Source of the DNA: Clostridiales bacterium
GTDB taxonomy: Bacteria > Bacillota > Clostridia > Christensenellales > UBA1242
DNA length: 53,818 nt
Direction: 5' to 3'
Assembly (NCBI GenBank): GCA_918241715.1
Contig: CAKJYB010000022.1
Coordinates: 1 to 53,818 of the forward strand
Part shown: positions 5,401 through 38,939 of the stretch, piece after piece
Layout of the letters: the number at the start of each line of letters is the position of its first letter
How positions within the stretch are numbered: the stretch's first letter is position 1
Position numbers and translations under genes: made by a program
Notes under the pieces: model-generated
The model's input: the letters and a program-made list of their open reading frames with translations, nothing else
Told to the model about the DNA's origin: nothing
The model's database searches: none

Positions 5401-5405
5401 GTGAT

Positions 5406-5435
5406 TATATATTAAATTATGCCAAAAATTGACAA
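5406..5435 (-). promoter_or_regulatory. Candidate promoter for the 49-aa ORF (-35 TTGTCA, 18 nt, -10 TATATA)
   Basis: Reverse complement of 5398-5435 is TTGTCA-N18-TATATA-atcac-ATG. The alternative -10 TATAAT would need a 20-nt spacer. Confidence 0.3.
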
Positions 5436-5440
5436 GAATC

Positions 5441-14170: not shown

Positions 14171-17100
14171 TTATTTTACAGACATTTTTTCCATACGCTT
14201 TTTGTTTCTCTTAGCAATATAGATGATTGTGATTGCTGTTCCTGTCAAAGCCAAAACGGCAGCACCAATGAGATACCAATACCAAACTTCAGCTTTGCCA
14301 CCTTCAATCACGGCTCTTTCTCCAATCACACCAAACAATCCGTCATAACTTGTATCTACATACAAATATGGGTTGTAAATTGCCGTAACCTGATGTTTGT
14401 TGAAATTGAAACGTCCGTTAAAGGCGTGTTCGATTGTTCCGATTGGCGTCCAGAATTCTGCCCCAATCTTTAAATCTTTCTTCAAAACATAACTTGCTTC
14501 GCTATAGTATTCTCCATACAAATTTTTTGCTCCGGAGTTTACTTTTTGCATCACAAACACAAGTTCTTCCACGCTGGAAATCTCATAAGGGTTTCTCTTT
14601 GTTCCTTCTCCTTCAAGGTTTACTTCAACAACTTTTTCTTCCCAAAGAAGTCTTCTAAACATAACTTGAAGTCTCAAAGTTCCCACAACTTGATTTTCTT
14701 CAATATATTCTGTTGTAAGTGAGATTTTTCCTTTGTCATAGAATGGCATAAGGTCGATTTCTCTTTCTCCAATTCCAATGACAATCGTGTCGATTGAATA
14801 TCTTGGATTTACTTCAAATCCAATTGTCATGTCTTGTCCACGATCCATTCTAAACATGTTTGTTCTGCGTGAATTGTACAACACAAATCCTGCCAAGTTT
14901 ACGTTGTCGGCATCAACTGCATTCAAGCCCTTTTGTTCTTCAACAAAATCTCTATTTACATAAATTGCCATGATTTCGTTTTGGAAGTTTGGAAGAAGTC
15001 TTATGTAGTGGTTTTCTGACATTTCTGGAGAAATTGTAAGTTCGAAATAATACTTTCCGTCAGCATATCTTGTGTGTCTTACGTCGTCTCTGTTCCAAAG
15101 TGCAGCAAACCCACCATCAATTTCAACTGCAAAGGTAACCACGTCTCCAACTTTCACTTCGATTTCGTTGAGAAGAATTGTAAAGACGTTTCTTATCTTT
15201 GAGCCGATTCTAAACGAACGTGAAGTGTTGTTGATTGATGTCGCAATTGCAGACATGATTTGTCCATGTGTATAGTCATAAGGCACTTCATTTCCAAGAG
15301 AATCCTGACTTGTAAACTTGATTGTTACATAGTCCCCTTGCAAATTCATAACAAAAGTTGTTTTTGCTGTCACATAGAGTCTGTCCCACTCTGGCGCAAT
15401 CGAACTTCTGCCACTTGTGATGTTGTTCCATCTTACAAATGTGTAGCCTTCTTTTGGAACAGCTCTAAGCATGAATGGGATTGTTGAATCAACATAACCT
15501 GCTCTCAAAAGAGCTTCTGCTTGTGTGTCTTTTGTCTCTTGGACAATATCGTAGTATCCTTCACCACCATAGACAACAACGTCAATCTTTACGTAGTAAA
15601 CAACTTGAATGTTTACTTCAACAATTGCGTCAAGTTCGTTTGTTACCCAAGGAACTGATGTCTGGCTTGTAGAAACTGGTTTCAGCACTTCGCCATTCTT
15701 GTTCTTTTGTGAAATCACAAACTTATAGAACTTGTATCCGTCCATTTCTGGCGCCGTGATGTTTATTGAAGTGTTGAATGCAACTTCAATATAGTATGGA
15801 GAATCCTTGTAGAACCAAGAATTTGTATAATCAACACCTTCAACCATGTCTTGTGCTGTGATAAGTGTTGGCACAGATGGAACAAGAGTGAAGATTATTC
15901 TTGTCTTAAGGTATGACCAATATAGGAAGATGGAAATTTCCATATCTCCTGTTTGTTCGTTTATACGTGCGTTTGTTGTAAGTTTGTAAGTAGAACTTCC
16001 GATATCATAATAATATCCTGTGTCTTGCCACAAAAGTGATGGAAGTCCGTCAGAATTGATGTATCTTACGCCTGCACCATTTTCATAACTGAAGAAGCCT
16101 TCGTAGGTGTATCCTTGCTTGTTGAGTTTAAGGTTGAGTTTTCCACCTGCATAAACAAGTCTGTCGTCATAGACAGAAATGTTTCCTTCATTTGTCTTGT
16201 TTACATTTATGAGTTTGCTGTATTCAACATTTCTGATTGTCGCAAGAACGCTTCCGTCTTCAACAAGGTGAACGACATATCTTCTTGGAGTTATCACAAC
16301 CCTGATTGTTGCTTCTTCAAAATAGTCTGCAACAACAAATGTTATCACTCCCATATATCCCGTTGTGTAAATGTCCATCTCTTCAAACGCAACACTGCTT
16401 GCAACAACAAGTCCACTTTCGTCAACAAACTGAATGTTGTCTGGGTCAATAAGATATCCCATGTCGATATATGCGTAAATCTTGAATGAACTATCTGTGT
16501 AAGCAGACATTTCGATTGTTGAATATCCAATACCTGAAGAGAACACTTTTCTTGGTTCTGCTGTTTCATAATTGAATGCTCCACCATCAACAGAGTCTTC
16601 TTCGACAGCAAAATCAATGCTTATCTTGTTGAGTGTTGGTCTAAACAAAACTGAGATTTCGCAATTCTCTCCACCAACAACGCCAACAATTTTGTAAATT
16701 GCATCGCCATCGTCTGCATCAGCTATTCTTGAAACGTTCATATTTTCGTTTTCAAATGCAATTCCATAGAAGACAAATCCTGCTCTTTCAAGTTTTGCCC
16801 TGATAAAGATTTCTTCTCCTGTGCATGCAATAATTGTAAATTCTTTGTTGTTTACAAGTTCTCCGTCAGTATAGTCGTCCAAACTATAGTGAACTCTTGT
16901 TCCTTCAACATAGCCATATTCGTTTACGTCAGCACCTTCTCCGTCAACAAGTTTGATTGATCCAACATTTCTGTTTTCTTCTCTCTCTCCTTCAACGTCG
17001 ATTTCTGTCTTTACAAAGACTCTTGAGCTCAATGCTCTTACAACCATATATATAGTGATTTCTGTTTGCTCTTCGTCAAGTCCCAATGTGGAGATATTTA

Positions 17101-20100
17101 TATAACCCCTTGAATTTCCATCGTCTTTTGAAAGGTAAACAAAGTCTTCGCCATTTTTATATCCGTGTCCATAGAATCTATATCCTACAGGTGTATCATA
17201 ATATATGTTTTTGCTGGAGCCATAGTAAATGCTTGTCTTTGTTATACTCTTTGTCTTTTCTTCGTCTTCAAAATATTCTTCTCCAACGTTTTCAATTTCG
17301 TCGTAGTGCGTTTCCAGCATTTCAGGGTCCATATATTCGCTGTAAAGTGTGTAGTAGTTCAAGGTCTTCAATGTTACGTTGATTTTGATTGCAGAGAATA
17401 TTGCATAAATCGTTTCGTCGTCTTCAATTGTATATGTTGTGTTTCTGTCGTTGCTAAATACAATCGTTCCGTTTTTGCTCCAACCAGCAAAGTTGTAAAT
17501 CACATTTGAAGAAACAAATGCAAGTTCTATTTCTTCTCCAAATTCTTTTGTGATTGTCATTGTGTTGTTGTCTGCAATTTTTACTCTGTTTTGTTCTTCA
17601 AAAACTTGTTGCTTGCTGTCGTTGATGGATATAACTTCAAGCGTGATTGTATAACTTTCTATTTCTTCTTCAAAAGTTATTTCTCCATCAATCAAAATGT
17701 TTGAAATGGTGATTTCATAATATTTTTCTTCAAGTATTGTTGTCTCTTGAATATCAACGTCATATCCACTTTGTGTTTGATACGTTCCAACTCTGTAGCC
17801 GTGTTTGTATTTTACAACAAACGTCAAATCTTCTCCTGTTGGAACTTCGATTGAAATGTCTTCAAAGTTGTAATAGTTTCTCTCTTGATATACAAAAGAT
17901 TCAATATTTTCTGGGTTTTCAAATCCAACTGCAACATAGTGTTTGTCTTCCTGTGTTTCAAATGTAAATGCAACATTTCCAAGAATTCCAGAAATTTCAA
18001 GTGTCAACACTCCACCGGTCAAATCTTCGTCAATGTCAAGTGTGTCAACAGAAACGCTGTATCCACTTATCAAATAGCCTGTTGCGCCGTGAACAACCAT
18101 TCTTATTGTTCTGCCGGTTTCAACAGCAAATCTGTTTGCTGAAATTATGATTTCTTCTTCACCTTCTGTTATGTCATAGGCTTGAACAACTCCAACATTT
18201 TCACCGGAGTAAACAACAATGTTTTCGTCTGCCCTTGCTCTGATTGTGTAAGAATAATCTCTGCCAGGCATAATCACAACAAAGTAAATTTGTTCTCCCC
18301 TTGTGTAAGACGAAATCTCTTCTGGAAGTTCGCTTGCACTTGGAATGTGATATCCGTTGTTTGCTTTCACAATAAATGTGAGTGTTTCGTTGAATTGAAG
18401 TTCTGTTTCGTAAGAAGTAATTTCTTGCTCTTCAAACTCCATTGTTCCGTTTTCGATTTCAAGAGTAAGTGTGAAACTTGCAATCTCCCATCTTGCTGTA
18501 AGTGTGTGGGTGTTTGTTGTCGCCATCACATCACTTCCAATCACTCTCTGTCCGTTGTAGTTATACCAGCCCAAGAAGTTGTATCCTTCTCTTTCTGGTG
18601 TTTCAACCCAACCGGCTGAAGTGTTGTATGCACTTTCAAATGCAACTGCAATATTTTCTGTCAAGTCGTTGTAGCCATAATTGAGTGTTACCACAACCCC
18701 AACAGATTCAAAGTTTGGCGTCAAAGTCAAAACTTGATCGTTTTCTCCAACAACCAAATCTTGCAAAACAACATCTTCAAATTGTTCTGGCAAATATGTT
18801 GTTCCGGCTATGGTGATAGAATTTAATACATAACCAACTCTTTCAAGTCCAACATCTTCAAGTGAAGTCTCTCCAAGTTCAAAATAATTTGTCGTCCAAA
18901 TAATTTTTCCTTCGTCTTCAACAAATCCATCAATGTTTGTGCTTGTGTTTTCTGGGTCTGTTGTTGGGATTTCCACTCTCACGCTTTGAGCTTTAAATCT
19001 TACAACAATGTTGTAGCTCTTTGTCATTTTTGAAATTGTAAGTGTTGCTGTTGCTCCATCTCTTGTTACATTTACGAACATCGCCCCAGCCGTGTCATAT
19101 TTGTATCCTTCGTCTGCATCATAGAATCCAACATATGTGCAGTGTTCAAGTGGTGTTGCAAGAATTGAAACTTCTCTGTTGTATCCTGAAACAATCGTTC
19201 CGGCTCTGTCGATAACTTCTCCACCACTCTCTGCCGTTCCATAAGCAGCAGTTCTGCCATTTTCGTCTGCAATTCTTACATTTATTGAATATTCAACTTC
19301 TGACCAATCGGCTGTGAATGTAATAATTGGGTTTTCGTTTTCAAGATAATACATTCCCGCAATATTGTCTGTATCATCTCTCATAAGTTTGTTTAGAAGT
19401 GAAACTGAAGCAGCGTTGTTTCCAACATAGAAATCGAAAATTTCGTTTTCGTATGCTGTTTTAAGCAACAATTCTTCTGCAAGAGCACTTAAGAATTCGT
19501 ATTTTTGAGAATTTTCTTCCACGTTTGTAAACCTAAGCATCCAAGCCTTAAACGTATAACCTGTATAGCCTGAAAGTGATGTTGGGAAGTTTTCTATAAA
19601 CATTGTATCATTTTCGTATGAGTTTGATGTGATGTAAGAAATTGACACAAATGGGAATGCAAGTTTTGTTATGGTCTTGATTCCTGCAATTTCTGTGTTG
19701 GAGTGAACTGCCGTGCTTCCGTTTGCATTGTAGTCAAATCTTAAAGATACAACAATTGGTTCAATAACACCATAACTCCAATTTGTAATTCTGTAGTTGT
19801 CTGCATCTGCTCCACCAAGGGTTAATTCAACTTCAATCGTGTTTCCTATGTCATAAGAAGCATATTCGGCGCTTTCCAAATATACTGCATCTCCAGTCAA
19901 AACACCATCAAGAGCAAACTTGTCAACTCCACCTTCTTGAATTGAGCAGTTTGTGTTTCCATCATATTTCTTTGTAAACGCTTCTCCCAAGGTGCCTGAA
20001 GTTGCTGTGTAAGAAATGTCTTTCTTTGAAACTACAACTTTTGCTTCATTTGAATAAACAAGTTTCTCAACACCATCAACATTGAATGTTGGGCTGAAGT

Positions 20101-26100: not shown

Positions 26101-29100
26101 TATATACAAAACTGCTTCCCTCTGTCGTAAGAAAACTTCCAACATAAACAAGTTGGCTTTCTGCAGTATATTTCAATTCTTCAATTTGGCTTTCAAATGA
26201 AATGCTGTAATCACCATCAAATTCCCAAGCAACATACAAGTTGAGATTTGGTTCGTCCGTCTGTGTCAAATCACATGTTTCAATATATTGATCAAAGATT
26301 GTGTCTTCTGCTATTTGGTTTCTTCCGGCAATTTCTGTGCTGTTTGCATATATTCCCAAAAATCTGAAATCTTTTCTTGTTGGAATTCTGTTTGTTGCAT
26401 AGTCGGCATAGATGTTTGCAAAGGTTGAATCATAGACGATGTCATAGTCTTCATACCCTTCACCTTCCGTCTTTCTTACGCCATTTTTATAATAAACGTT
26501 TGCGCTGTTTTGATATACTCTGACTTTGTAGTGTCTTGCTTCCCAAACGGCAACAAGTGTGATTTCTCCATCATAGATATATTTTCCGTCCGCATCAAAA
26601 TAGTCGCCTTCACAAAATACGAATTCGCTTCCGTCTTTTTCAATCACGTAAGGTCCAAGTGGAGATTCTTCGTCAACATACAATTTCCAACCAAGCAAAT
26701 CATAGCCGACACGATCAACCTGTGGAATGTTTGGCAAAGTTTGGTCAAAGAAAACATTGACAACGTTGCTGCTTCCCGGTGCAAACGTTCCATCGTTTGC
26801 ATTGAAGTTTATATTATAGTTGTTTGCACTCCATCTGAAATAAATGTGCACAACATTCTTGTCGTCTCCTTCGTCATGGACGCTTTCAAAAATGTCATTT
26901 CCAAGCAAAATGTTGTTGTCAAACAACACAACTTCTTGCCCGTTGTTGCCCGTGTATGCCATAAACTCTGTTTGTGCAAGCTCTCTGTATCCCGTTCTTC
27001 TGCTAAAATGTTCTCTAAGGTTAAATCCTGCATCAGAACTTCCAAAACTTGATATATCGGTTATATCAACTTCTTCTCCAAAACGAGAAGTATATTTGGT
27101 CAAAGATGCAAAAGCTCCTGTATTGTTTGTTGTCTCTTGGTTTTCTGTGTTGTAAACATGGCCGTTTCTTCCATCTCCATATTCATTTAAAAGTCCTGTT
27201 CCAGAGTGGAAAACAAGGGTGATTTCTTTTCTTACAACAACTGGCACAAGATAGTATGATTGAGAAACTCTTCCTTGATATTCGTATGCCCTTTGAGTCA
27301 TTCTGTCAACAAGGAAATTGAAGTTATAACTTGCCAAAACATCTTCGCTTTCCCAATAGTCATGGTTGGCATCATACCTTACTGGAACAACTTCCCCCTC
27401 ATCGTTTACACAATAGATTCTATAGCCGGCGTATTCGTATCCGGCCGCATTTTCTCCTGTAAGTGCTGTTATTGAAACGCCTTTGTATGCAGTGTTTTCA
27501 AGTCCTATAGTATATGTATATTGATTTGGGCTCAAACCAGAAACGCCCGATTCAATGCCAAGCTCTTGATATGTTGCAATCTGTCCATTTGACTTGTCCC
27601 AAATTTGATTTTGATAAAGTTCAAAATTGATCACTTTTCTTGTAAAGACTGAACGCACGTTCATTACAAAATCTGCACATTCACACGCAATAAACATGTC
27701 AGAATAAACAAATTCAAGTGTCGTCGATGTGTCATCATACTCAACGATTTGTATTGCGTTTGTTCTGTTACCATTTACAACTTCAAACCATCTCAAGAAA
27801 TATGCGTGATTTGGTGCTACAACTTTCACTCTGATTTTTGAATTGAATGCAAACTTGTTGCTTGCCCTGTTGTCCGTATATGCCGTCCCCGTTGAAACGC
27901 CCGTTGGTCTTGTATAATAATCAAACGTTTTTGCATTTTCTTCGTCCCAAACCATGACCCCATCAACTTCTTTTTGTGAAATTATTTCCATGTCAGTATA
28001 TTTCATTGTTTGGGTGTTTAAGATTCCATCAATTGTTGTATTAAAATTGATGTCGTATTTTACTTCTTCGCAGACAATTCTTACAATGTATCTTGCTGCA
28101 GGGAAACTTGTATCGTAATTAAACGAAATCTCATTTATGTTGTTTTGCGTGTCAAAAGTCCCCGGGTCGTCAAGTCCGTTTATTTCATATTGACTGCTTT
28201 CGTCTCCCCCTTCAGGAATTTCTTTTGCAGGGTTTATGAAGAAAACTTGATTGTTGAGATATACGCTATTTGGTCTGTCTGCGTCCTGTTTAAACCTGTA
28301 ATATTCCGATGGGTTAACTACAAACTTGAATGTTCCTGCCTGCTCAACATCATACATTGTGTGTTCTGCAACAATTGTTGGTGCATTTTCCAAAATCTTT
28401 TTGTAGCCGGTGATATTTCCTTCTCCATCTTTTTCTTCCAAAACAAATTCAAATGACAAGTCAACGATTGTCGCTTTGCTTGAAATGGAATAATCTTTGT
28501 TTGAATATTCCACTGCACCTGTAAAAACTGCATATCCTTTTGAATTGTTTGTTTGTCCTGCACTGGTTACTGGAATAATAGTTGCAGAATACCTGTTTGC
28601 TGGTACGTCTTCGTCGTGATCCTTATCAATCCTTTTTCGTAGCCCACCTTGTATGGAAATCGTGTCTCTTATATCTTTTGCCATGGCTATAAACACAAAA
28701 TCTTGATTGTAGAAATATTGGAACGAATACTTTGCATTTCCATCTTCTATAGTTTTTACAATTTTTACAATTGTGTCTTGAATGGAAGTTGACAAAACTC
28801 TTCCATTAGCCCCTATTTGTGGTGAGCTGTTTAACAGATAGACAGCTCTCAGCCCGTCTCCATCGTCTGAAAACAGATAATTTCTCTCACCAAAAGAAAC
28901 GATGTTGTCAGCATTTTCTGAAAAATTTGTGATTGAAAGATTTTCAAATGCGTTGTCATTTGAAATCAATCTCAAGGTGTCAAAATTAAATCCAACATAC
29001 CTTTCGTCTTCACCGGAGAATGTTATTCCATATTCTTCCCCGTATATACTTACCTTTTTGCCAACAACATCATATTTTGGTCCAATGGCAAAATTAAAAT

Positions 29101-32100
29101 CACCTGAAAGGGTTAAGTCTTTTTCATATTCGTCTCTTTCAATTGTGATATTGCAAGAATAGTCGTCCGACAAATTTAAAAATGCCAATTTGTTGAGTTT
29201 ATCTATTCTTGAAACAGGAAGAGAAATCTCATCTTCCGAAAAGTTGCTTCCAACAAGTTCTTTTACTTTTGCTTCTCCAAAATCACCATAATCATCTTCG
29301 TTAAAATAAACACCCTGTATATGATAGCCTTCCTTGAGAGCAAAATTGAGTCTCAAAAAGTTTTCCATCCTGTCGCTATACTTTGTGTTGAAACGAATAA
29401 CAATCTTATTTCCAGAAAGTTGCGCTGTAAATTTATTCCCTGAGTTGTCAGTTGTGCTTTCATATTTTTGCAAATAAATTGAATCCATGTTTAAAACTTC
29501 AGAGAAATTAAACTTGTTCTTTGCTGCATAATCTCTGCTTTCGACGTCCGAACTCTTGTTTAAATTGATTGTGAACGTATAGTTTTCTTCAGTTGTTCCC
29601 GTCCATTTTACATAAATATTTTTATGCGTTTGTCCATCGGCAAGATTCATTCTGTCGTCAATTCTAAGTGCTTTGGAAAAATTTCCATTGCTGAAAGATG
29701 TGTAATAGCTTGCAGTATAATTTTCTCTTGCCTGCGACGTTATCTCTGGCCATACTTCGGTTAAGATGTCGTCATAGCCGAATGTTCTTTCTTCATAGAC
29801 TTCTGTTGTTGCAAAACCAGCATACACTTCATATTCATTTTTTACAATTCTTACATCAACATTTCTCTCTTCATATTGTGCAGTAAACACCAACTCATTG
29901 AGAGTTATTTCTTCTTTTCTCAAAGGCAACTCAAATGCAATTGTGTCAACAGAAACTTCTGTGTTTTCTGCCGTTTTATAGCTTTTAAGATAATATCCTT
30001 CGTTGACAATATAGTTTGCAACTGAGATTTTTGGATTTATTTCTTGTGGGGATCTTGTTGGCAAAACCAAGTTTTCAAAAGATGTGGCATTTTGAACTTT
30101 GTATTGGCTTCCATCTTTTTTCAAAAGAGTTTGATATTGTCCGTAAATATACTTGCTGGTTTGACTAGTGTTATCATAATAATAAATTCTTCCACCATTT
30201 ACATTTGTTTCTACAACATATCCTTCTGGTGTGTAAACATTAAAACATACATCTTCAACTTTTCCTTCAATGTTGGCCTTTCCAAAATAAACATGTAAGC
30301 TGTTGTTTTCAACATGTCCAACAGGAGTTTCATAGTCTGTTGTGCAGTTTACAAGATAAGTTGATGCAACAACATTTCCAATGATAGCCCCTTTCCTAAC
30401 CGAACTTCCGTCAGAAAGATATTTGACGTTTTTAACATTCAAGTTTTTAATGACAGCACTGGAAGTTGACCCAAAAACACCAAAGTTTTCAACACCAAAG
30501 TCGCTTTGGTGAGAACTTACAAGGCCATAAATCGTGTATCCGTTTCCGTCAAAGACTCCGGCAAATCCAACAATTGGTTGCCATGCTCTTTCGGAAAGAT
30601 CAATGTCGTTTTGAAGAGAAAAATATTTCCCTAATGTAGAAGACATCTTTCTTACCAATGTCAAGTCTCCAACAGAATAAATTCTGTAAGGATCATACTT
30701 TTTTCCACTTCCGAGCAAGTTGGTTGCAGTGGATTGTGCGTTTACATCGCTGTCGGCCGTTTCGTCCAAGAATTTGAGATATGGCATAGAGCTGTTTACT
30801 GATGCTGAAATATCCCAAGTGTTTTCAAAATCCCATATTGTGTTTGGGTTGTTCCCCCAAAGTTTTTTGTTTGCATAAAATCCTTTTGTCTTTGCCCAAT
30901 CAACAATCTCTTTTACTCCATAATTGCTTGAAGTGTAAAGAGTTTGGTCATAGACCCTGTTTAGCAACACGTCATTTTCAACTGAATAATAAAGGAAGCC
31001 GCCACTTACAACATCACCAATTGTTTGTCCTATGCTCCTTGTTGCACCCTTTACCACTCCGGTATTAAACGAATTTTTTATTGCAAAGTTGTCCATTCCA
31101 CCAATAAACCCGACAAGCCCACATCTGTAATTATCTCCGTTTACTTCTCCGGCGTTGTAGGAATTGTTAAGTTCATTTTTCTTGTTTACTCCCGTCTTTG
31201 TCTGTGTCTCTGATCTTCCAATAATTCCACCAACACTTGAAATAGACCCCTGCACTGAAGAAATCTTTGCAGTGTTGTAAACATTTGTCAACTTGACACC
31301 TGTTGGGTTTTGTGCCAACCACCCAACAATACCACCAATGTATCCTTTTGTATGATTTGTAATCTCTCCATCAAAAGAAGCGTTGTCAATTGAAACGCCA
31401 ATAAATTCTCCAACGATACCACCGACACATGAAAGTTCTGCCGTGCCGTTTCCATCTATGTAAACGCTGGATTTAAGGTTTGATATTTTTGTGTTTACGT
31501 TTCTCTTTCCGTTGGAATCTGGATTAGGAGAAGAAACGGTTCCAATCACACCACCAACGTTTTGATAATTCCCAGATGCAGAAAGATTCATCTTTCCTGA
31601 TACAGAACAATATCTAACGGCTTCACAACCAGCCCCCGTAGCCGTCGATGCAACTCTACCAACAAGTCCACCAACATTGTTTGCCTTTCCTGTTATGTTT
31701 ATGTTTCTAAGGTTTAAGTTTAAAATCGTTCCACCTGCTCCAGAAATAGAACCAAACAAACCGGCATTGTTAAAATTGCCTGAAACATTTAGGTTGTAAA
31801 TATAGTGCCCGTTTCCGTTGAACGTTCCTTGAAAATATCTGTTGTCAACATTTGCAATAGGAGTCCATGCATGACCACCAAGGTCCACGTCTGTTTCCAA
31901 ATGAATTGTCTTTCCACTATAAGATTCTTGTCCGTTTACAGCGTTTACACTTTGAGCAAACTTAACAAATCCTTTTGCCGTGTATATGTAATAGTCGTTT
32001 CCAGATTTGTAAAAGTCTGTATCTGAAACATCTCCAACAGAACTGCCGTCCCACAATTTGTCGCCAGAAAGAGATGTCGTCTCTTCTCCTGCAGCAGAAA

Positions 32101-32203
32101 CAACACTATAATCTGTTTTCGACTTTTCAACACCCAAAAGACCAAGCAAACTGCAAAGTCCAAAGGTAAGGGCAAACAACGCCAACAATCCTTTTCTTTT
32201 CAT
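14171..32203 (-). CDS. Giant (~6,010 aa) mosaic cell-surface protein: signal peptide, GLUG-type beta-helix modules, Flg_new-like and MBG-like repeat arrays, C-terminal TM tail anchor
   Basis: An uninterrupted 18-kb frame in AT-rich DNA. Start set at Met10 of the track ORF (MKRKGLLALFALTFGLCSLLG...) because AAGGAG lies 6 nt upstream. Motifs are detailed in the sub-features below. No LPXTG, SLH or HExxH was seen by eye. Confidence 0.9.
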   Translation of the reverse strand: MKRKGLLALFALTFGLCSLLGLLGVEKSKTDYSVVSAAGEETTSLSGDKLWDGSSVGDVSDTDFYKSGNDYYIYTAKGFVKFAQSVNAVNGQESYSGKTIHLETDVDLGGHAWTPIANVDNRYFQGTFNGNGHYIYNLNVSGNFNNAGLFGSISGAGGTILNLNLRNINITGKANNVGGLVGRVASTATGAGCEAVRYCSVSGKMNLSASGNYQNVGGVIGTVSSPNPDSNGKRNVNTKISNLKSSVYIDGNGTAELSCVGGIVGEFIGVSIDNASFDGEITNHTKGYIGGIVGWLAQNPTGVKLTNVYNTAKISSVQGSISSVGGIIGRSETQTKTGVNKKNELNNSYNAGEVNGDNYRCGLVGFIGGMDNFAIKNSFNTGVVKGATRSIGQTIGDVVSGGFLYYSVENDVLLNRVYDQTLYTSSNYGVKEIVDWAKTKGFYANKKLWGNNPNTIWDFENTWDISASVNSSMPYLKFLDETADSDVNAQSTATNLLGSGKKYDPYRIYSVGDLTLVRKMSSTLGKYFSLQNDIDLSERAWQPIVGFAGVFDGNGYTIYGLVSSHQSDFGVENFGVFGSTSSAVIKNLNVKNVKYLSDGSSVRKGAIIGNVVASTYLVNCTTDYETPVGHVENNSLHVYFGKANIEGKVEDVCFNVYTPEGYVVETNVNGGRIYYYDNTSQTSKYIYGQYQTLLKKDGSQYKVQNATSFENLVLPTRSPQEINPKISVANYIVNEGYYLKSYKTAENTEVSVDTIAFELPLRKEEITLNELVFTAQYEERNVDVRIVKNEYEVYAGFATTEVYEERTFGYDDILTEVWPEITSQARENYTASYYTSFSNGNFSKALRIDDRMNLADGQTHKNIYVKWTGTTEENYTFTINLNKSSDVESRDYAAKNKFNFSEVLNMDSIYLQKYESTTDNSGNKFTAQLSGNKIVIRFNTKYSDRMENFLRLNFALKEGYHIQGVYFNEDDYGDFGEAKVKELVGSNFSEDEISLPVSRIDKLNKLAFLNLSDDYSCNITIERDEYEKDLTLSGDFNFAIGPKYDVVGKKVSIYGEEYGITFSGEDERYVGFNFDTLRLISNDNAFENLSITNFSENADNIVSFGERNYLFSDDGDGLRAVYLLNSSPQIGANGRVLSTSIQDTIVKIVKTIEDGNAKYSFQYFYNQDFVFIAMAKDIRDTISIQGGLRKRIDKDHDEDVPANRYSATIIPVTSAGQTNNSKGYAVFTGAVEYSNKDYSISSKATIVDLSFEFVLEEKDGEGNITGYKKILENAPTIVAEHTMYDVEQAGTFKFVVNPSEYYRFKQDADRPNSVYLNNQVFFINPAKEIPEGGDESSQYEINGLDDPGTFDTQNNINEISFNYDTSFPAARYIVRIVCEEVKYDINFNTTIDGILNTQTMKYTDMEIISQKEVDGVMVWDEENAKTFDYYTRPTGVSTGTAYTDNRASNKFAFNSKIRVKVVAPNHAYFLRWFEVVNGNRTNAIQIVEYDDTSTTLEFVYSDMFIACECADFVMNVRSVFTRKVINFELYQNQIWDKSNGQIATYQELGIESGVSGLSPNQYTYTIGLENTAYKGVSITALTGENAAGYEYAGYRIYCVNDEGEVVPVRYDANHDYWESEDVLASYNFNFLVDRMTQRAYEYQGRVSQSYYLVPVVVRKEITLVFHSGTGLLNEYGDGRNGHVYNTENQETTNNTGAFASLTKYTSRFGEEVDITDISSFGSSDAGFNLREHFSRRTGYRELAQTEFMAYTGNNGQEVVLFDNNILLGNDIFESVHDEGDDKNVVHIYFRWSANNYNINFNANDGTFAPGSSNVVNVFFDQTLPNIPQVDRVGYDLLGWKLYVDEESPLGPYVIEKDGSEFVFCEGDYFDADGKYIYDGEITLVAVWEARHYKVRVYQNSANVYYKNGVRKTEGEGYEDYDIVYDSTFANIYADYATNRIPTRKDFRFLGIYANSTEIAGRNQIAEDTIFDQYIETCDLTQTDEPNLNLYVAWEFDGDYSISFESQIEELKYTAESQLVYVGSFLTTEGSSFVYNGYQNVAFNSASGLLEITISDELHATLTMYLNDEEETEFSVRDAGVYTKTFKIVVEDNAEYYNCGTIIEEIHTFSVGVLKASIDTEASIDENLVKLASVKNIMKGLVSDAEYQTIQAFTNIENFADYIRDHDNTANSASDENIYKFVMLKFYNQLVDADYLTYKNWKYSDYQTYYDAHQEDAERTISNLRFVSSYIYTDNGKRRDISDYTSAFKFKSVDGDVSDSKIRSELSISSVKINGNASGIEANSTAELYIYFSASEETLNNYSLLEDENGNTYFEIASIYILPQILQVANSESSGYSYYDETLSCADIEWFVGRNEAEAVEGQTYYQITDDLFMKAKLYTSNGGSGRVDTDYTAFGVENVLYYSNVDIYRKVGNEYQFVSDRFKVLADKNDIYKILSTKDFYRVNISAQYLTTSQGQRTSTEISTDVAQNLLRIIGVAYYTGSDPSAQTDPTKWKQERSDDFLEEKEYRVSAGGMVLFKIVHNNDNNVSIFAHKVVKRISVVLTTKYITENIRFHKWSDTILRDVDGPFEENGGFDILTNGIEMNEDKETEVNYYATFTDLVEVVYNLNFPEDYPTRSVERSVLKLGVSTIDDLFIPNEGGFEFVTFNLKDTTGVAIDYTTLFTGPSDTFKGLTEKHARLELDVVWKIGDILTEQKVETINLQVGTLYQYSMEEIVSITNKSNDLFTYTYVWKKGTQIVSEGENLSLENGGITTDSGEYSLTISAKVKERFKNVVPNPTDAEDAVVEFTINLMPHKITQIELVGEDTAIYDSYNHSQDWTIDVRYLRYNNETGEYYQLPDMEEVFFTTDDVLSAETTKGGNVVDEMVNVGQYSIHLSYNTDYYVVESGTELDFDFVFEITPFVLDIDGEISPKGKYFNGDNEDIKQTFSTGFEELEIEFSRQAGEDIGEYRLYLKDVASQSKGNYTIVCGEDVIFENSTPDTTIVVGTFTISCAGEIKLSYETDASTRENLEVVYNPDGYTIALTDSFKLQIFNGETKIKDIQLKLYDVANQKEITNSTILNILKTKVSDITPYFNNSVDIAHAIDCGVYAYTFNLGQQISNYYTTIRFETGYQFTIKKQELDVETFNLDKVYDGKTIAYIDLNGDVIPSIENYEDVYILATYESPYANPSVNVLLNVVGTGEENIANYELSAPSTTATISKLSATGTIATTKASYVYGEVRENNFESLLQSIVLYANGQNVTNLLNEERYTISYALPSLAQANTAGCLYVGTYTIDVSATFEDFDVSITEPQIQVAPLNVVKNLNKGAFKVVAPATRTDNYVDVPMTISETGDSITLSYYTYGITNPSQLIADHFYNLQPETTSFANGSVLVSVPTNEGLEILANNNIVEARIVNTGILTQTYNGSEYEFSVNLSTQTFEISNGANTYTSALTFWEESTQITISDFSEIEVYSPARDGQGQEIRQTEFTTAGTNKLAIYTRSNSYPIIIFKQDYNFEIEKKAINVSNLSVSKIYDGNMNYTITTFAEKVGEDDVSIVARFENANVGTNKNISLSLVGEDAGNYQLSSASMTGDITKQTAVVTIDNLQYTYGDLSNTSTLQFSVYCGDNKVGTSEYNIEFTIVGATYSTQWNYLFAGQYSLQMTGSSDNYNLTFDNSVKLVVSKYALDVVFETSGVVSVEYGETNPNTFNYTYRTPIFEDVVLQVTRQNGLNVGFYRALSSTTTDPNFVISSTTDNSDGMYRITKSSVVVFLLLSNEEEITSSTAESVAFAYDGNIYNQLQVRKVSDEYKLVITDGANEKMFALNTYIYDGSKYVKTAKTLQNLTSVLSFAEEEVKNVGIYRYLCESAQAENYNVSLMKTGQVYNNIVINPKELRFKEETITRTFDNKDAIYIYEDADELVDGVVDGEEVGLKIEFFKNAERARYVGQNYVVQAELVGENEVVSNYQILTLTADETQVNGTIEKAEMKIYINSVRIVYGEDYTLSFDYTYDEEIDLTGYDMTRIDIRLHVVGEQTSTANKAKVGEYRIEVSTDIKDFSPTFNVDGVEKLVYSNEAKVVVSKKDISYTATSGTLGEAFTKKYDGNTNCSIQEGGVDKFALDGVLTGDAVYLESAEYASYDIGNTIEVELTLGGADADNYRITNWSYGVIEPIVVSLRFDYNANGSTAVHSNTEIAGIKTITKLAFPFVSISYITSNSYENDTMFIENFPTSLSGYTGYTFKAWMLRFTNVEENSQKYEFLSALAEELLLKTAYENEIFDFYVGNNAASVSLLNKLMRDDTDNIAGMYYLENENPIITFTADWSEVEYSINVRIADENGRTAAYGTAESGGEVIDRAGTIVSGYNREVSILATPLEHCTYVGFYDADEGYKYDTAGAMFVNVTRDGATATLTISKMTKSYNIVVRFKAQSVRVEIPTTDPENTSTNIDGFVEDEGKIIWTTNYFELGETSLEDVGLERVGYVLNSITIAGTTYLPEQFEDVVLQDLVVGENDQVLTLTPNFESVGVVVTLNYGYNDLTENIAVAFESAYNTSAGWVETPEREGYNFLGWYNYNGQRVIGSDVMATTNTHTLTARWEIASFTLTLEIENGTMEFEEQEITSYETELQFNETLTFIVKANNGYHIPSASELPEEISSYTRGEQIYFVVIMPGRDYSYTIRARADENIVVYSGENVGVVQAYDITEGEEEIIISANRFAVETGRTIRMVVHGATGYLISGYSVSVDTLDIDEDLTGGVLTLEISGILGNVAFTFETQEDKHYVAVGFENPENIESFVYQERNYYNFEDISIEVPTGEDLTFVVKYKHGYRVGTYQTQSGYDVDIQETTILEEKYYEITISNILIDGEITFEEEIESYTITLEVISINDSKQQVFEEQNRVKIADNNTMTITKEFGEEIELAFVSSNVIYNFAGWSKNGTIVFSNDRNTTYTIEDDETIYAIFSAIKINVTLKTLNYYTLYSEYMDPEMLETHYDEIENVGEEYFEDEEKTKSITKTSIYYGSSKNIYYDTPVGYRFYGHGYKNGEDFVYLSKDDGNSRGYINISTLGLDEEQTEITIYMVVRALSSRVFVKTEIDVEGEREENRNVGSIKLVDGEGADVNEYGYVEGTRVHYSLDDYTDGELVNNKEFTIIACTGEEIFIRAKLERAGFVFYGIAFENENMNVSRIADADDGDAIYKIVGVVGGENCEISVLFRPTLNKISIDFAVEEDSVDGGAFNYETAEPRKVFSSGIGYSTIEMSAYTDSSFKIYAYIDMGYLIDPDNIQFVDESGLVVASSVAFEEMDIYTTGYMGVITFVVADYFEEATIRVVITPRRYVVHLVEDGSVLATIRNVEYSKLINVNKTNEGNISVYDDRLVYAGGKLNLKLNKQGYTYEGFFSYENGAGVRYINSDGLPSLLWQDTGYYYDIGSSTYKLTTNARINEQTGDMEISIFLYWSYLKTRIIFTLVPSVPTLITAQDMVEGVDYTNSWFYKDSPYYIEVAFNTSINITAPEMDGYKFYKFVISQKNKNGEVLKPVSTSQTSVPWVTNELDAIVEVNIQVVYYVKIDVVVYGGEGYYDIVQETKDTQAEALLRAGYVDSTIPFMLRAVPKEGYTFVRWNNITSGRSSIAPEWDRLYVTAKTTFVMNLQGDYVTIKFTSQDSLGNEVPYDYTHGQIMSAIATSINNTSRSFRIGSKIRNVFTILLNEIEVKVGDVVTFAVEIDGGFAALWNRDDVRHTRYADGKYYFELTISPEMSENHYIRLLPNFQNEIMAIYVNRDFVEEQKGLNAVDADNVNLAGFVLYNSRRTNMFRMDRGQDMTIGFEVNPRYSIDTIVIGIGEREIDLMPFYDKGKISLTTEYIEENQVVGTLRLQVMFRRLLWEEKVVEVNLEGEGTKRNPYEISSVEELVFVMQKVNSGAKNLYGEYYSEASYVLKKDLKIGAEFWTPIGTIEHAFNGRFNFNKHQVTAIYNPYLYVDTSYDGLFGVIGERAVIEGGKAEVWYWYLIGAAVLALTGTAITIIYIAKRNKKRMEKMSVK
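14213..14287 (-). other. C-terminal transmembrane helix of the giant protein, followed by a 13-aa basic tail (14174-14212)
   Basis: VWYWYLIGAAVLALTGTAITIIYIA followed by KRNKKRMEKMSVK-stop. This is the only hydrophobic segment apart from the N-terminal signal. Confidence 0.8.
14288..14615 (-). other. Membrane-proximal GLUG-like cap module
   Basis: EGEGTKRNPYEISSVEELVFVMQKV...DLKIGAEFWTPIGTIEHAFNGRFNFNKHQVTAIYN...YDGLFGVIGERAVIEGG has the same G-x-G-x3-PY-x-I / W-x-PIG / F-x-G-x-F-x-GNGH-like / GLFG pattern as the N-terminal modules. Confidence 0.6.
14620..19740 (-). repeat. Array of Listeria-Bacteroides (Flg_new / InlB B-repeat)-like modules, mostly degenerate
   Basis: A GY-x-[FILV]-x-G-[WFY] signature recurs about every 80-110 aa. 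Examples: REGYNFLGWYNY...TLTARWE, YNFAGWSKNG...IYAIFSA, NNGYHIPS, ATGYLISGYS, KHGYRVGTYQ, PVGYRFYGHGY, RAGFVFYGIAF, KQGYTYEGFFSY...FLYWS, MDGYKFYKFV, KEGYTFVRWNN. Boundaries are approximate. Confidence 0.5.
18485..18705 (-). other. Clean Flg_new (Listeria-Bacteroides repeat) module
   Basis: VVVTLNYGYNDLTENIAVAFESAYNTSAGWVETPEREGYNFLGWYNYNGQRVIGSDVMATTNTHTLTARWE. Confidence 0.7.
19750..23520 (-). repeat. Array of MBG-type (YDG ... NY-x-L/I) beta modules
   Basis: Examples: LDKVYDGKTIAYIDLNG...GEENIANYELSAPSTTATISK (about 22597-22862); VSKIYDGNMNYTIT...NANVGTNKNISLSLVGEDAGNYQLSSASMTGDITK (about 21470-21715); FTKKYDGNTNCSI...GGADADNYRITNWSYGVIEP (about 19750-20035). Degenerate copies include KYFNGDNE...GNYTIV and RTFDNKDA...VSNYQIL. 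Confidence 0.6.
26545..26830 (-). other. Clean Flg_new (Listeria-Bacteroides repeat) module
   Basis: NYNINFNANDGTFAPGSSNVVNVFFDQTLPNIPQVDRVGYDLLGWKLYVDE...GEITLVAVWEA. Confidence 0.7.
30290..31950 (-). other. N-terminal region with two GLUG-motif beta-helix modules
   Basis: Module 1: KTIHLETDVDLGGHAWTPIANVDNRYFQGTFNGNGHYIYNLNV..NAGLFGSISGAGG...NVGGLVGRVAS...NVGGVIGTV...CVGGIVGEF...YIGGIVGWL...SVGGIIGRS...RCGLVGFIGG. Module 2: GSGKKYDPYRIYSVGDLTLV...RAWQPIVGFAGVFDGNGYTIYGL...NFGVFGSTSSAVIKNLNVKNV...KGAIIGNV. Confidence 0.7.
32132..32203 (-). other. N-terminal Sec-type signal peptide / anchor of the giant protein
   Basis: MKRKGLLALFALTFGLCSLLGLLG has a basic n-region plus a hydrophobic core. 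FGLC is not a canonical lipobox. Confidence 0.65.
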
Positions 32204-32234
32204 GGAAGACTCCTTGACACAATATGTCATTATT

Positions 32235-32402: not shown

Positions 32403-32441
32403 AAAAAAGCAGATTTTTTATTTTAAAATCTGCGTTTTTTT
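32403..32441. terminator. Rho-independent terminator after trpS (structurally bidirectional)
   Basis: GCAGATTTT (32409-32417) / AAAATCTGC (32425-32433) form a 9-bp stem with a 7-nt loop, flanked by an A6 run and a T7 run. It sits 16 nt beyond the trpS stop on the minus strand. Confidence 0.75.
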
Positions 32442-38905: not shown

Positions 38906-38939
38906 ATAAGAAATATTTTTGGTTTTAGGTGGTGAAAAA

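What the first reader, a model, noticed from the sequence alone, without database searches (positions are those of the whole stretch)
14171..32203. 18-kb single gene: ~6,010-aa mosaic surface fibre anchored by a C-terminal tail anchor rather than LPXTG
**What the sequence shows**
- A single 18,033-nt reading frame with no stop codon, in AT-rich DNA where random frames close within tens of codons.
- From N- to C-terminus I read: a Sec-type signal; two cap-plus-GLUG beta-helix modules (G-x-G-x3-PY-x-I, W-x-PI, F-x-G-x-F-x-GNG-[HY]-x-I-x-[NG]-L, then periodic hGG[LIV][VI]G / GLFG turns); a first run of Flg_new-like modules; a helical-looking segment; about ten MBG-type YDG...NY modules; and a second long Flg_new-like array.
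- The protein ends with a third GLUG-like cap placed directly before one TM helix and a KRNKKRMEK tail.

**What is absent**
- I see no LPXTG, SLH, choline/cell-wall-binding repeats or HExxH.

**Why it matters**
- The building blocks are known from Firmicute adhesins. This combination and size, with a tail anchor and a membrane-proximal GLUG cap, does not correspond to any named adhesin family I know.
- It is the best candidate in the window for an undescribed surface system.
Basis: partly seen in the sequence, partly recalled or inferred. Interest (0 to 1): 0.85.

Follow-up and report, generated by a model that had tools for sequence, protein, structure and literature searches.

The report
Giant membrane-anchored surface fibre gene
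This is a real 18-kb gene for a 6,010-residue cell-surface fibre held in the membrane by its tail; every close relative of this uncultured gut bacterium keeps it at the same chromosomal spot, it has never been studied, and it may be how these tiny-genome bacteria attach to partner cells or the host.

Summary
An uninterrupted 18,033-nt reading frame lies at 14171-32203, on the minus strand. It has a Shine-Dalgarno site, a Sec-type signal, three cap domains, one C-terminal membrane helix and a basic tail. There is no LPXTG and no HExxH.

It is not an assembly artefact. There are no DNA repeats in the gene. About 40 representative proteins of 5,800-6,400 aa align with it end to end. Eight of them map to the same position downstream of gltX/trpS in related gut Clostridia genomes (probably family UBA1242, order Christensenellales).

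- Cap, GLUG, YDG and InlB-type B-repeat modules are confirmed.
- The MBG assignment is weak.
- Roughly 2,000-2,500 residues match nothing known.

Conservation rises from the outer end to the membrane end. The stretch at aa 700-1800 is hypervariable.

Best reading: a type-I membrane-anchored fibre of about 670 kDa that holds GLUG beta-helix heads far from the cell, probably for attachment. It works like the staphylococcal giant protein Ebh, which also has a signal and a C-terminal TM and lacks LPXTG. It is not homologous to any characterised giant protein, and database homologues are labelled "hypothetical protein" or carry no name.

Verdict: new variant of a known kind; moderate-to-good interest.

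The parts
14171..32203 (-). Complete coding sequence: 6,010 codons plus stop (stop codon at 14171-14173)
   Evidence: ORF list and translation. An identical 6,010-aa protein, P0225, is on record from an NCBI contig of 53,818 bp.
32210..32215 (-). Shine-Dalgarno AAGGAG, 6 nt upstream of the ATG at 32203
   Evidence: Read directly from the upstream sequence.
32409..32433 (-). Terminator-like hairpin plus T-run that ends the upstream tRNA-synthetase gene. About 200 nt of AT-rich spacer with promoter-like sites follows.
   Evidence: Terminator scan: 2 sites found against 0.1 expected.
32093..32203 (-). Signal peptide, aa 1-37: MKRK, a 20-residue hydrophobic core, and a V-S-A|A site
   Evidence: Hydropathy scan. 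Orthologues share MK+K, a hydrophobic core and an A-x-A site at positions 30-37. The cleavage site is inferred; no signal-peptide predictor was run.
31679..32008 (-). Cap domain 1, aa 66-175
   Evidence: Orthologue cap profile 6e-17. HHalign probability 98-99.6%. Weak Peptidase_M26_N match in the window protein; matched in 6 of 18 orthologues.
30944..31678 (-). GLUG beta-helix 1, aa ~176-420 (periodic VGG[LIV]VG turns)
   Evidence: Glug 20.3 bits against a cutoff of 20.5. Glug matched in 12 of 18 orthologues, best E 9e-12. The family profile matches the IgA1-protease beta-helices 3n6z, 6xja and 6xjb.
30404..30721 (-). Cap domain 2, aa 495-600, followed by a short GLUG-like stretch. One of the best-conserved segments (45% identity).
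   Evidence: 3n6z residues 40-116 align to this cap.
26804..30106 (-). Hypervariable region with no assigned domains, aa 700-1800 (12-21% identity, 11-28% gaps across the family)
   Evidence: Family alignment. No Pfam hit. Single-sequence AlphaFold2 gave pLDDT 29, which is uninformative.
26174..26806 (-). Two InlB-type B-repeat (Flg_new-like) modules, aa ~1800-2010
   Evidence: HHalign probability 87-97% against the Pfam-validated internal Flg_new module. GY..GW and ..A.W motifs read in the sequence.
23684..26173 (-). Unassigned region, aa 2011-2840, including the helical-looking stretch at ~2110-2260. Length is conserved across the family (<11% gaps).
   Evidence: No Pfam hit at E<=1. No HHalign match to the internal templates. 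Conservation.
19754..23683 (-). YDG/MBG stalk, aa 2841-4150. Four YDG domains (aa 3113-3208, 3495-3583, 3865-3963, 4055-4150), MBG_2-like modules (aa ~2841-3050, ~3561-3850) and unassigned beta modules between them.
   Evidence: Pfam YDG 1.8e-12 and 6e-9; MBG_2 2e-4, below its cutoff. HMM iteration. HHalign. The same YDG positions appear in orthologues.
14924..19753 (-). Membrane-proximal stalk of B-repeat-like / Ig-like beta-sandwich modules, aa 4151-5760
   Evidence: Flg_new 29.5 bits and Flg_new_2 29.6 bits, both above cutoff. HHalign. Flg_new_2 matched in 10 of 13 orthologues. The AlphaFold2 model of aa 5390-6010 has pLDDT 87.5. Foldseek returns tandem Ig-like arrays such as pilins, SdrD and FN3.
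15404..16003 (-). Most conserved block of the whole protein, aa 5401-5600 (57% and 44% identity across 33 relatives)
   Evidence: Family alignment. Invariant columns listed.
14288..14620 (-). Cap domain 3, aa 5862-5972, ending in ...YDGLFGVIG. The short EGGKAE segment at its C-terminal end leads straight into the membrane helix.
   Evidence: Cap profile 3.7e-19. tblastn cross-hits to orthologues' N-terminal caps. HHalign probability 97-99.7%. Present in all relatives.
14213..14287 (-). Single transmembrane helix, aa 5973-5997 (VWYWYLIGAAVLALTGTAITIIYIA)
   Evidence: Hydropathy. AlphaFold2 models a helix over residues 585-620 of the model. A W-[YW] start is present in 31 of 33 relatives.
14174..14212 (-). 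Cytoplasmic basic tail, aa 5998-6010 (KRNKKRMEKMSVK)
   Evidence: The family tail is always 12-15 aa: a K/R run followed by RE(E/K)L(A/S)xK, with median net charge +6.

Best explanation
**What it is.** A genuine, intact core-genome gene of an uncultured gut Clostridia bacterium, most likely of the reduced-genome family UBA1242 in the Christensenellales. It encodes a cell-surface fibre of about 670 kDa.

**Shown by computation**
- An N-terminal Sec-type signal.
- A single C-terminal membrane helix followed by a 13-residue basic tail. By the positive-inside rule this gives a type-I topology, with about 5,935 residues outside the cell.
- The outer (N-terminal) end carries two cap-plus-GLUG beta-helix heads homologous to the N-terminal domain of streptococcal IgA1 proteases, but there is no protease domain.
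- The rest is a stalk of beta-sandwich modules (InlB-type B-repeats, YDG/MBG and unassigned modules).
- A third cap domain sits directly on the membrane helix.
- The whole plan, including the length of 5.8-6.4 thousand residues, is kept in about 40 relatives at the same locus. The sequence diverges fast, most of all in the distal third.

**Inferred**
- The protein stands out from the cell as a fibre roughly 150-250 nm long. This assumes about 4 nm per 100-residue Ig-like module.
- Its membrane-proximal, best-conserved modules cross the cell wall.
- Its variable distal part and GLUG heads contact something external. Candidates are a partner microbe, host mucus or epithelium, or food particles. 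The fibre would tether a bacterium that is predicted to depend on other cells for metabolites.
For: **The gene is real**
- Open frame and ribosome-binding site.
- No DNA repeats in the gene.
- An identical protein was called independently in a public record.
- 33 colinear full-length relatives of 5,819-6,411 aa, plus 19 recovered by a second search.

**Core locus**
- The gene order giant lipoprotein - 288-aa tail-anchored protein - bipA - dnaB - two small surface proteins - gltX - (trpS) - this gene is found in about 38 species-level genomes.
- Eight full-length proteins map exactly to those loci.

**Surface topology**
- Only two hydrophobic segments.
- The signal, TM and K/R tail are conserved.
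- The ectodomain is acidic, pI 4.4.

**Head domain**
- PDB profile hits to 3n6z, 6xja, 6xjb and 7uvk.
- GLUG in 12 of 18 orthologous N-termini and Peptidase_M26_N in 6 of 18.

**Stalk**
- Pfam YDG, Flg_new and Flg_new_2.
- A confident AlphaFold2 model of aa 5390-6010 (pLDDT 87.5) whose Foldseek matches are pilins, SdrD and FN3-type tandem Ig arrays.

**Exposure-type evolution**
- Identity is 12-21% at aa 700-1800 and 44-57% at aa 5400-5600.
- The same gradient is seen against the closest relative.
- BipA is 84-90% identical in the same genomes.

**Lifestyle context**
- UBA1242 genomes are mostly under 1 Mbp, lack standard transporters, and are predicted to be partner-dependent (PMC12306168).
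- Ca. Caccovivens, whose locus L022 is syntenic, belongs to UBA1242 (PMC8035907).
Against: - There is no expression, localisation or binding data of any kind.
- No ligand-binding domain with a known specificity was found.
- About 2,000-2,500 residues have no assignable fold, so other activities cannot be excluded.
- The signal-peptide cleavage site and the TM topology rest on hydropathy and alignment, not on a dedicated predictor.
- The family-level taxonomy of this particular contig is inferred from BipA identity (86-90%) and synteny, not from a genome-wide placement.
- The genome size of this organism is unknown.
- A conserved length and a core-genome position would fit a structural or envelope role just as well.
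Confidence: 0.6

Rival explanations
1. An envelope-structural or protective fibre rather than an adhesin. In this reading the protein acts like Ebh as a spacer or scaffold, or forms a dense brush that shields the cell. It would set cell size or envelope integrity, or keep phages, antibodies such as IgA, and complement-like factors away from the membrane.
For: - Core-genome position among housekeeping genes, and presence in every close relative examined.
- Length is tightly conserved at 5.8-6.4 thousand aa, with few gaps over aa 2000-6010.
- Same anchoring logic as Ebh (PMC4856396). That paper cites Ebh as a determinant of cell size and complement resistance.
- The head domain is homologous to the non-catalytic N-terminal domain of IgA1 proteases.
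- No recognisable lectin or binding module was found.
Against: - The distal third evolves much faster than the rest. This is more typical of a part that interacts with a changing external target, or that is itself a target.
- It shares no sequence homology with Ebh repeats: no FIVAR, GA or DUF1542 hits.
- A shield and an adhesin are not mutually exclusive.
Confidence: 0.25
2. A fibre that carries a hidden enzyme or toxin domain in the unassigned regions (aa ~600-1720 or ~2000-2840). It would be used to open or digest the envelope of a prey or partner cell, as proposed for giant proteins of Omnitrophota.
For: - About 2,000-2,500 residues have no Pfam match and no match to the internal domain templates.
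- The region aa 2000-2840 is length-conserved and includes a helical-looking segment.
- Giant proteins of predatory ultra-small bacteria revealed such domains only after structure prediction (bioRxiv 10.1101/2023.11.21.568195).
- The organism is predicted to take metabolites from other cells.
Against: - No catalytic motif or family was detected: no HExxH, and nothing in Pfam or NCBIfam.
- The one unassigned stretch that could be modelled with confidence, aa 5641-5760 inside the model of aa 5390-6010, folded as ordinary beta-sandwich modules.
- The most variable region (aa 700-1800) is too poorly conserved for an active site.
Confidence: 0.1
3. An assembly artefact, a chimera of several genes, or a decaying pseudogene.
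For: - The contig comes from a metagenome assembly.
- Giant modular genes are classic sites of mis-assembly.
- One related locus (L031) shows a stop after 427 codons.
Against: - There are no repeats that could be collapsed.
- Composition is uniform across the gene and its flanks.
- More than 40 independently assembled relatives have the same length, the same module order, and signals at both ends.
Confidence: 0.01

Closest known systems
Ebh / Embp (Staphylococcus giant surface proteins)
   Same: - Giant Firmicute surface protein with an N-terminal secretion signal and a C-terminal transmembrane domain.
- Explicitly lacks LPXTG (PMC4856396).
- Same working principle: a membrane-anchored fibre that must cross the wall.
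   Different: - No sequence homology. Ebh is built from helical FIVAR/GA-type repeats.
- This protein is built from GLUG beta-helices, YDG/MBG modules and B-repeat beta-sandwiches.
- Cap domains at both ends are specific to this family.
Streptococcal IgA1 proteases / Zmp family (Peptidase M26; PDB 6xja, 6xjb, 7jgj, 7uvk; 3n6z)
   Same: The cap plus GLUG beta-helix is homologous to their N-terminal domain (profile E-values 7e-22 to 4e-13; Peptidase_M26_N and Glug hits).
   Different: - No catalytic M26 domain and no HExxH.
- No LPXTG.
- The beta-helix module is present twice, plus a third isolated cap.
- The protein is three to five times longer.
Generic GLUG / Flg_new / YDG multi-domain surface proteins of gut Firmicutes and Bacteroidota (about 1,000-2,000 aa)
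   Same: They share the same building blocks. Hundreds of such proteins match the head domain.
   Different: - They match only the cap/GLUG part, aa 1-620 and 5853-5967.
- They end in other anchors (dockerin, SLH, copper-amine-oxidase-like, or the T9SS PF18962 signal).
- None is colinear beyond the head.
Giant1-5 of Apilactobacillus kunkeei
   Same: - Several 3,000-8,000-aa extracellular proteins take up a large share (6%) of a small 1.5-Mb Firmicute genome.
- They have a signal peptide, an N-terminal beta-solenoid and a long imperfect-repeat stalk (PMC12863079).
   Different: - The A. kunkeei proteins have no TM. They attach through C-terminal SH3b-like/DUF5776 domains and are largely alpha-helical.
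- They are not homologous to this protein.
Giant proteins of Omnitrophota and other ultra-small or episymbiotic bacteria
   Same: Very large surface-exposed proteins in small cells with partner-dependent lifestyles, proposed to act in attachment (bioRxiv 10.1101/2023.11.21.568195).
   Different: - Those proteins exceed 10,000-85,000 aa, have many TM helices and carry SecA-like and enzymatic domains.
- This one has a single TM and no detected enzyme domain.

Membership tests
GLUG-motif proteins (Pfam PF07581) | Sequence scores at or above the Pfam gathering cutoff (20.5 bits) | tested here: inconclusive
   The window protein scores 15.0, 19.1 or 20.3 bits depending on the slice, always just under the cutoff. 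12 of 18 orthologous N-termini match at E<=0.01, best 9e-12.
GLUG-motif proteins (Pfam PF07581) | Homology of the cap plus beta-helix to GLUG proteins of known structure | tested here: met
   The family profile hits 3n6z at 7e-22 and 6xjb at 6.4e-19. Database homologues of aa 1-620 carry PF07581 and PF05342.
IgA1-specific metalloprotease M26 / Zmp | Catalytic zinc-metalloprotease domain with HExxH | tested here: not met
   No HExxH anywhere in the 6,010 aa. No catalytic M26 domain hit.
IgA1-specific metalloprotease M26 / Zmp | N-terminal region (Peptidase_M26_N, PF05342) | tested here: inconclusive
   18 bits against a cutoff of 27.7 in the window protein. Matched in 6 of 18 orthologues, best 3.8e-7.
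Sortase-anchored LPXTG wall proteins | LPXTG (or a variant) immediately before the C-terminal hydrophobic segment and basic tail | tested here: not met
   No such motif in the last 1,300 residues. No NCBIfam LPXTG-anchor hit. The 33 relatives also lack it. Whether the genome encodes a sortase could not be tested.
YDG domain (PF18657) | Score above the gathering cutoff (25 bits) | tested here: met
   64, 47.7, 37.6 and 36.4 bits. Four modules found by HMM iteration.
MBG / MBG_2 domains (PF17883, PF18676) | Score above the gathering cutoffs (23.3 and 25 bits) | tested here: not met
   MBG 15.5 bits and MBG_2 22.3 bits. MBG_2 is recorded for two relatives. Internal profile-profile matches reach 95-100%.
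InlB-type B-repeat (Flg_new PF09479, Flg_new_2 PF18998) | Score above the gathering cutoffs (27 and 23.6 bits) | tested here: met
   29.5 and 29.6 bits. Flg_new_2 matched in 10 of 13 orthologous C-termini. The number of modules is uncertain, because my own module HMM was over-fitted.
Ebh/Embp-type giant proteins | Signal peptide plus a C-terminal TM, without LPXTG | tested here: met
   Ebh features are taken from PMC4856396.
Ebh/Embp-type giant proteins | FIVAR / GA / DUF1542 repeat content (sequence homology) | tested here: not met
   None of these families appears in any Pfam scan of the protein.
Known C-terminal sorting signals (NCBIfam *-CTERM models) | Score above the model cutoff on the last 57-156 residues | tested here: not met
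   The best hit is GG_III-CTERM NF041738 at 16.5 bits against a cutoff of 22.
Bacterial lipoproteins | Lipobox [LVI][ASTVI][GAS]C at the end of the signal peptide | tested here: not met
   The signal region reads ...TFGLCSLLG. The position before Cys is Leu, so it does not fit. The neighbouring 3,637-aa giant protein does have a fitting lipobox, LVAC.

The most novel reading that the evidence does not exclude
This protein family, together with the neighbouring 3,637-aa giant lipoprotein, is the attachment apparatus of UBA1242-type bacteria. It would be a length-calibrated tether of about 0.2 micrometres by which a Firmicute with a genome under 1 Mbp lives as an episymbiont or parasite on other gut microbes or on the host.

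The invariant C-terminal unit would then be a previously undescribed anchoring or sorting module, not a passive stop-transfer sequence. That unit consists of a cap domain, a helix that starts with W-Y, and a fixed tail of 12-15 residues ending RE(E/K)L(A/S)xK.
Probability: 0.2. Interest if true: 0.8.

Novelty: new variant of a known kind. Interest (0 to 1): 0.55.

Why it matters
UBA1242 bacteria are widespread in animal and human guts. They have never been cultured. They have been linked negatively to chicken growth (PMC13155120). From metabolism alone they are predicted to depend on other cells (PMC12306168), but nobody has pointed to the molecules that would mediate such contact.

An 18-kb gene would be about 1-3% of a genome of the published UBA1242 size range (0.67-1.6 Mbp). 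This gene is kept at one core locus in every close relative, is exposed on the surface, and evolves fastest at its tip. It is therefore an obvious candidate.

It offers concrete handles for experiment:
- an antigen for FISH or immunogold labelling and for cell sorting;
- a marker for metaproteomics;
- a defined head domain for binding screens.

It also adds a Clostridia example to the recurring link between small genomes and giant surface proteins.

Tried and rejected
**Searches that failed or misled**
2. Queries of 1,200 aa and 700 aa returned only generic GLUG proteins of about 1,000-2,000 aa. This wrongly suggested that no full-length homologue exists. The listed hits never exceeded about 1.75 times the query length. 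A 3,700-aa query and the exhaustive HMMER search then found the family.
3. A genome-collection scan with the C-terminal 1,000 aa found nothing, because the back-translated patterns are too strict for a protein this divergent. The exact BipA protein was not on record in the contig index.

**Analyses that gave nothing usable**
4. A single-sequence AlphaFold2 run on aa 620-1810 gave pLDDT 29, which is useless.
5. BLASTP of the protein against itself, and phmmer from single modules, detect no internal repeats. The modules are too divergent.
6. My iterated 'B-repeat' HMM reported 16-17 modules in the window protein but barely recognises orthologues. It is over-fitted, and I do not rely on its count.
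7. A PDB profile search with the C-terminal 621 aa found nothing.
8. Foldseek on the C-terminal model gives only generic tandem Ig-like arrays with low TM-scores and no functional clue.
9. NCBIfam scans for a known C-terminal sorting signal stayed below cutoff.

**Readings considered and rejected**
- Lipoprotein anchoring of this protein: there is no lipobox.
- An IgA protease: there is no catalytic domain.
- A phage or plasmid origin: the flanks are housekeeping genes in conserved order.
Full report
**1. The observation**

The window contains one stop-free frame on the minus strand, 14171..32230. Translation gives 6,019 codons from the first ATG.

The region is 35-39% G+C, like its flanks. 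Stops are therefore expected about every 14 codons, and an 18-kb open frame cannot be chance. A terminator-like hairpin ends the upstream tRNA-synthetase gene at 32433-32409. It is followed by about 200 nt of AT-rich spacer. No terminator separates the stop codon from bacA, 43 nt downstream.

There are no tandem repeats or long direct repeats inside the gene. The usual cause of mis-assembly in modular genes is therefore absent.

**2. Anatomy**

*Membrane segments.* Hydropathy finds just two hydrophobic segments. One is the N-terminal signal: MKRK, a 20-residue core, and V-S-A|A at position 37. The other is aa 5973-5997, followed by KRNKKRMEKMSVK.

*Caps.* Three cap domains are confirmed with a profile built from orthologues: aa 66-175, 495-600 and 5862-5972. 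tblastn cross-hits and HHalign agree.

*GLUG.* Pfam places the window's GLUG motif just under cutoff, at 20.3 vs 20.5 bits. Twelve of 18 orthologous N-termini match GLUG and six match Peptidase_M26_N. The family profile matches solved structures of IgA1-protease N-terminal beta-helices: 3n6z at 7e-22, 6xja/6xjb/7jgj at about 7e-19, and 7uvk/7uvl at about 4e-13.

*Stalk domains.* Pfam confirms YDG, Flg_new and Flg_new_2 above cutoff. MBG and MBG_2 stay below cutoff. Four YDG domains lie at aa 3113, 3495, 3865 and 4055.

*Profile-profile map.* I compared slices of the family alignment with Pfam-validated internal templates. The map is:
- Flg_new-like at aa 1721-2050, 4401-4690, 4841-5010 and 5441-5730, with weaker signals elsewhere in aa 4200-5200.
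- MBG_2-like at aa 2841-3050 and 3561-3850.
- No assignment for aa ~600-1720, 2000-2840, 3200-3400, 4920-5440 and 5640-5760.

*Other properties.* There is no HExxH and no LPXTG. The ectodomain is 667 kDa with pI 4.4.

*Structure.* An AlphaFold2 model of aa 5390-6010, built with 13 family sequences, is confident (pLDDT 87.5). It shows a chain of beta-sandwich modules, the cap, a short low-confidence linker and a long helix. Foldseek returns pilins, SdrD B-domains, FN3 and MG arrays, which are generic Ig-like stalk folds.

**3. Where it comes from**

The flanking genes are housekeeping genes:
- Downstream: bacA, a P-type ATPase, holB, a PSP1-domain protein and a methyltransferase.
- Upstream: a class-I W/Y tRNA synthetase, gltX, dnaB and bipA.

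BipA finds relatives of 79-90% identity in 80 species-representative genomes. All are uncultured gut Clostridia from rabbit, deer, mouse, human and chicken, labelled Clostridia, Catabacter, Christensenella or Candidatus Caccovivens. Ca. Caccovivens is GTDB genus UBA11517, family UBA1242, order Christensenellales (PMC8035907).

UBA1242 genomes are mostly under 1 Mbp, lack many biosynthetic pathways and standard transporters, and are predicted to be obligate symbionts or parasites (PMC12306168). They are counted among the 'genome-reduced specialists' of the chicken caecum (PMC13155120). Placing this contig in or next to UBA1242 is an inference from BipA identity and synteny.

**4. Relatives of the giant gene**

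*Synteny.* In about 38 of the 80 loci the order is: giant lipoprotein - 288-aa tail-anchored protein - bipA - small TM protein - dnaB - N-anchored protein - lipoprotein - gltX - (trpS) - giant gene. The syntenic ORFs start with the same kind of signal peptide. They run off the fetched DNA without a stop after 560-1,470 codons.

*Exhaustive search.* An HMMER search with the C-terminal 1,200 aa found 793 hits. These include:
- About 40 cluster representatives of 5,800-6,416 aa, aligned colinearly to their very last residue.
- One protein identical to the window protein (P0225; NCBI; contig of 53,818 bp, which is the window itself).
- A more distant set of 4,347-4,740 aa.

*Second search.* A word-based search with a 3,700-aa query returned 19 full-length homologues at 30-54% identity and 99-100% coverage.

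*Mapping and annotation.* Eight full-length proteins map at about 99-100% identity to the syntenic ORFs of L009, L016, L017, L019, L021, L029, L033 and L037. The only name attached to any of them is 'hypothetical protein' (MBE7075551.1). Literature searches found no description.

**5. What is conserved**

*Overall.* A 33-sequence alignment is colinear. Global identity to the window protein is 25-40%, median 31%. BipA is 84-90% identical, and DnaB, GltX and TrpS mostly 65-80%, in the same genomes.

*Along the length.* Conservation is uneven:
- 39-45% in caps 1 and 2.
- 12-21%, with many gaps, at aa 700-1800.
- 21-38%, with few gaps, at aa 2000-5300.
- A peak of 57% and 44% at aa 5401-5600.
- 42% in cap 3.

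The same rise from distal to proximal is seen against the closest relative.

*The C-terminal unit.* Every member ends the same way:
- a cap ending ...Y(N/G)GLFGVLG;
- a linker of about 10 residues;
- an uncharged run that starts W-[YW] in 31 of 33 members;
- a tail of 12-15 residues with 5-7 K/R, then RE(E/K)L(A/S)xK.

The distant relatives of 4.3-4.7 thousand aa keep one N-terminal cap, one or two YDG domains, the C-terminal cap, the TM and the basic tail. 'Cap at both ends plus tail anchor' is therefore the signature of the wider family.

**6. Mechanism**

*Shown by computation.* The protein has a Sec-type signal, a single C-terminal TM and a positively charged tail. By the positive-inside rule this gives a type-I topology with about 5,935 residues outside the cell.

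*Inferred.*
- At roughly 4 nm per 100-residue Ig-like module, the ectodomain would reach about 150-250 nm.
- The best-conserved block lies four to six modules from the membrane, which is about where a Gram-positive wall would be crossed.
- The hypervariable region and the GLUG heads are at the far end. That pattern is expected for parts that meet a changing external partner or are themselves under attack.

I therefore favour an attachment fibre (confidence 0.6 for the whole statement; about 0.85 for 'real, surface-anchored fibre').

*Rivals.*
- An Ebh-like structural or shielding role (0.25).
- A hidden enzyme in the unassigned regions (0.1).
- An artefact (0.01).

**7. Comparison with known systems**

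It works like Ebh, which has a signal plus a TM and no LPXTG (PMC4856396). It shares none of Ebh's repeats.

Its head is homologous to the non-catalytic N-terminal domain of M26 IgA1 proteases, but the catalytic domain is absent. It should not be filed as a protease.

It shares building blocks with many GLUG/Flg_new/YDG proteins of 1-2 thousand aa, but those align only to the head.

A. kunkeei Giant1-5 are a lifestyle parallel: giant proteins taking up 6% of a 1.5-Mb genome. They have no TM, are mostly helical and use SH3b-like wall binding (PMC12863079).

Omnitrophota giants are far larger, have many TM helices and carry enzymes.

**8. Verdict**

The finding is real.

What is new is the family itself. 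It is a conserved surface protein of about 6,000 aa with caps at both ends and a tail anchor. It sits at a core locus of a reduced-genome gut lineage, next to a second giant surface gene, and it is entirely uncharacterised. I rate it a new variant of a known kind, interest 0.55.

Noticed in passing
window 42779-53692 (- strand): A second giant gene of 3,637 aa with a classic lipoprotein signal (MKKF...LVAC|S) and no Pfam hit at all. Syntenic orthologues (25-36% identity over about 3,000 aa) lie upstream of bipA in about 35 related genomes. Its last ~350 residues look like a cap followed by GLUG-like turns, supported only by weak HMM hits (1.5e-4 and 7e-3). It may therefore be a mirror image of the main protein: lipid anchor at the N-terminus, beta-helix head at the far C-terminal end.
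   Followed up: partly
window 41883-42749 (- strand): A 288-aa protein with a signal peptide, a C-terminal TM helix and a KREEKKKEKTRKIL tail. This is the same tail-anchor design in miniature. It has no Pfam hit and always lies between the giant lipoprotein gene and bipA in relatives (27-48% identity).
   Followed up: partly
window 35199-36293 and 36303-37142 (- strand): Two fast-evolving surface proteins with no Pfam hit: a 364-aa lipoprotein (..MAGC) and a 279-aa N-terminally anchored protein. Both are Lys/Glu-rich. They always sit between dnaB and gltX in relatives at only 22-38% identity. In total, five rapidly diverging envelope genes are interleaved with highly conserved housekeeping genes in this 45-kb stretch.
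   Followed up: partly
window 38919-39935 (+ strand): An ankyrin-repeat ORF (338 aa from a TTG start; Ank_4 1.5e-11) on the opposite strand between bipA and the small TM gene. None of the 80 related loci has a counterpart, and most close relatives have only about 30-300 bp there. It looks like a lineage-specific insertion.
   Followed up: partly
window 14174-14287 (- strand) and the C-termini of P0227-P0263: The family's cytoplasmic tail has a fixed length (12-15 aa) and a conserved ending, RE(E/K)L(A/S)xK, after the K/R run. The helix begins W-[YW] in 31 of 33 members. That is more order than a plain stop-transfer signal needs. No known sorting-signal model fits; the best is GG_III-CTERM, below its cutoff.
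   Followed up: partly
window 32150-32170 (- strand); loci L003, L007, L011, L016 and others: The hydrophobic core of the signal peptide often carries F-G-x-C-G (FGLCS in the window protein). It is not a canonical lipobox, and several relatives lack the Cys. Its significance is unknown.
   Followed up: no
L031:12316-13630: The syntenic orthologue in this rabbit-gut MAG has a stop after 427 codons, close to the contig end. This could be a pseudogene, a strain-level truncation or an assembly error.
   Followed up: no
L002, L010 and L013, about 17300-18400: Where trpS sits in the window, these genomes carry a class-I W/Y-type synthetase that is only about 33-35% identical (others are 70-80%). This suggests a different paralogue, perhaps tyrS, at the same position. 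Several other genomes (for example L015, L019, L020) have no such gene between gltX and the giant gene.
   Followed up: no
P0275, P0277-P0279, P0282, P0284, P0285 (not in the window): A sister group of proteins of 4,347-4,740 aa has one N-terminal cap, one or two YDG domains, a C-terminal cap, a TM and an RKKRKKKLEQLANS-type tail. None of them matches the bipA loci that were fetched, so their genomic context and host lineage are unknown.
   Followed up: partly
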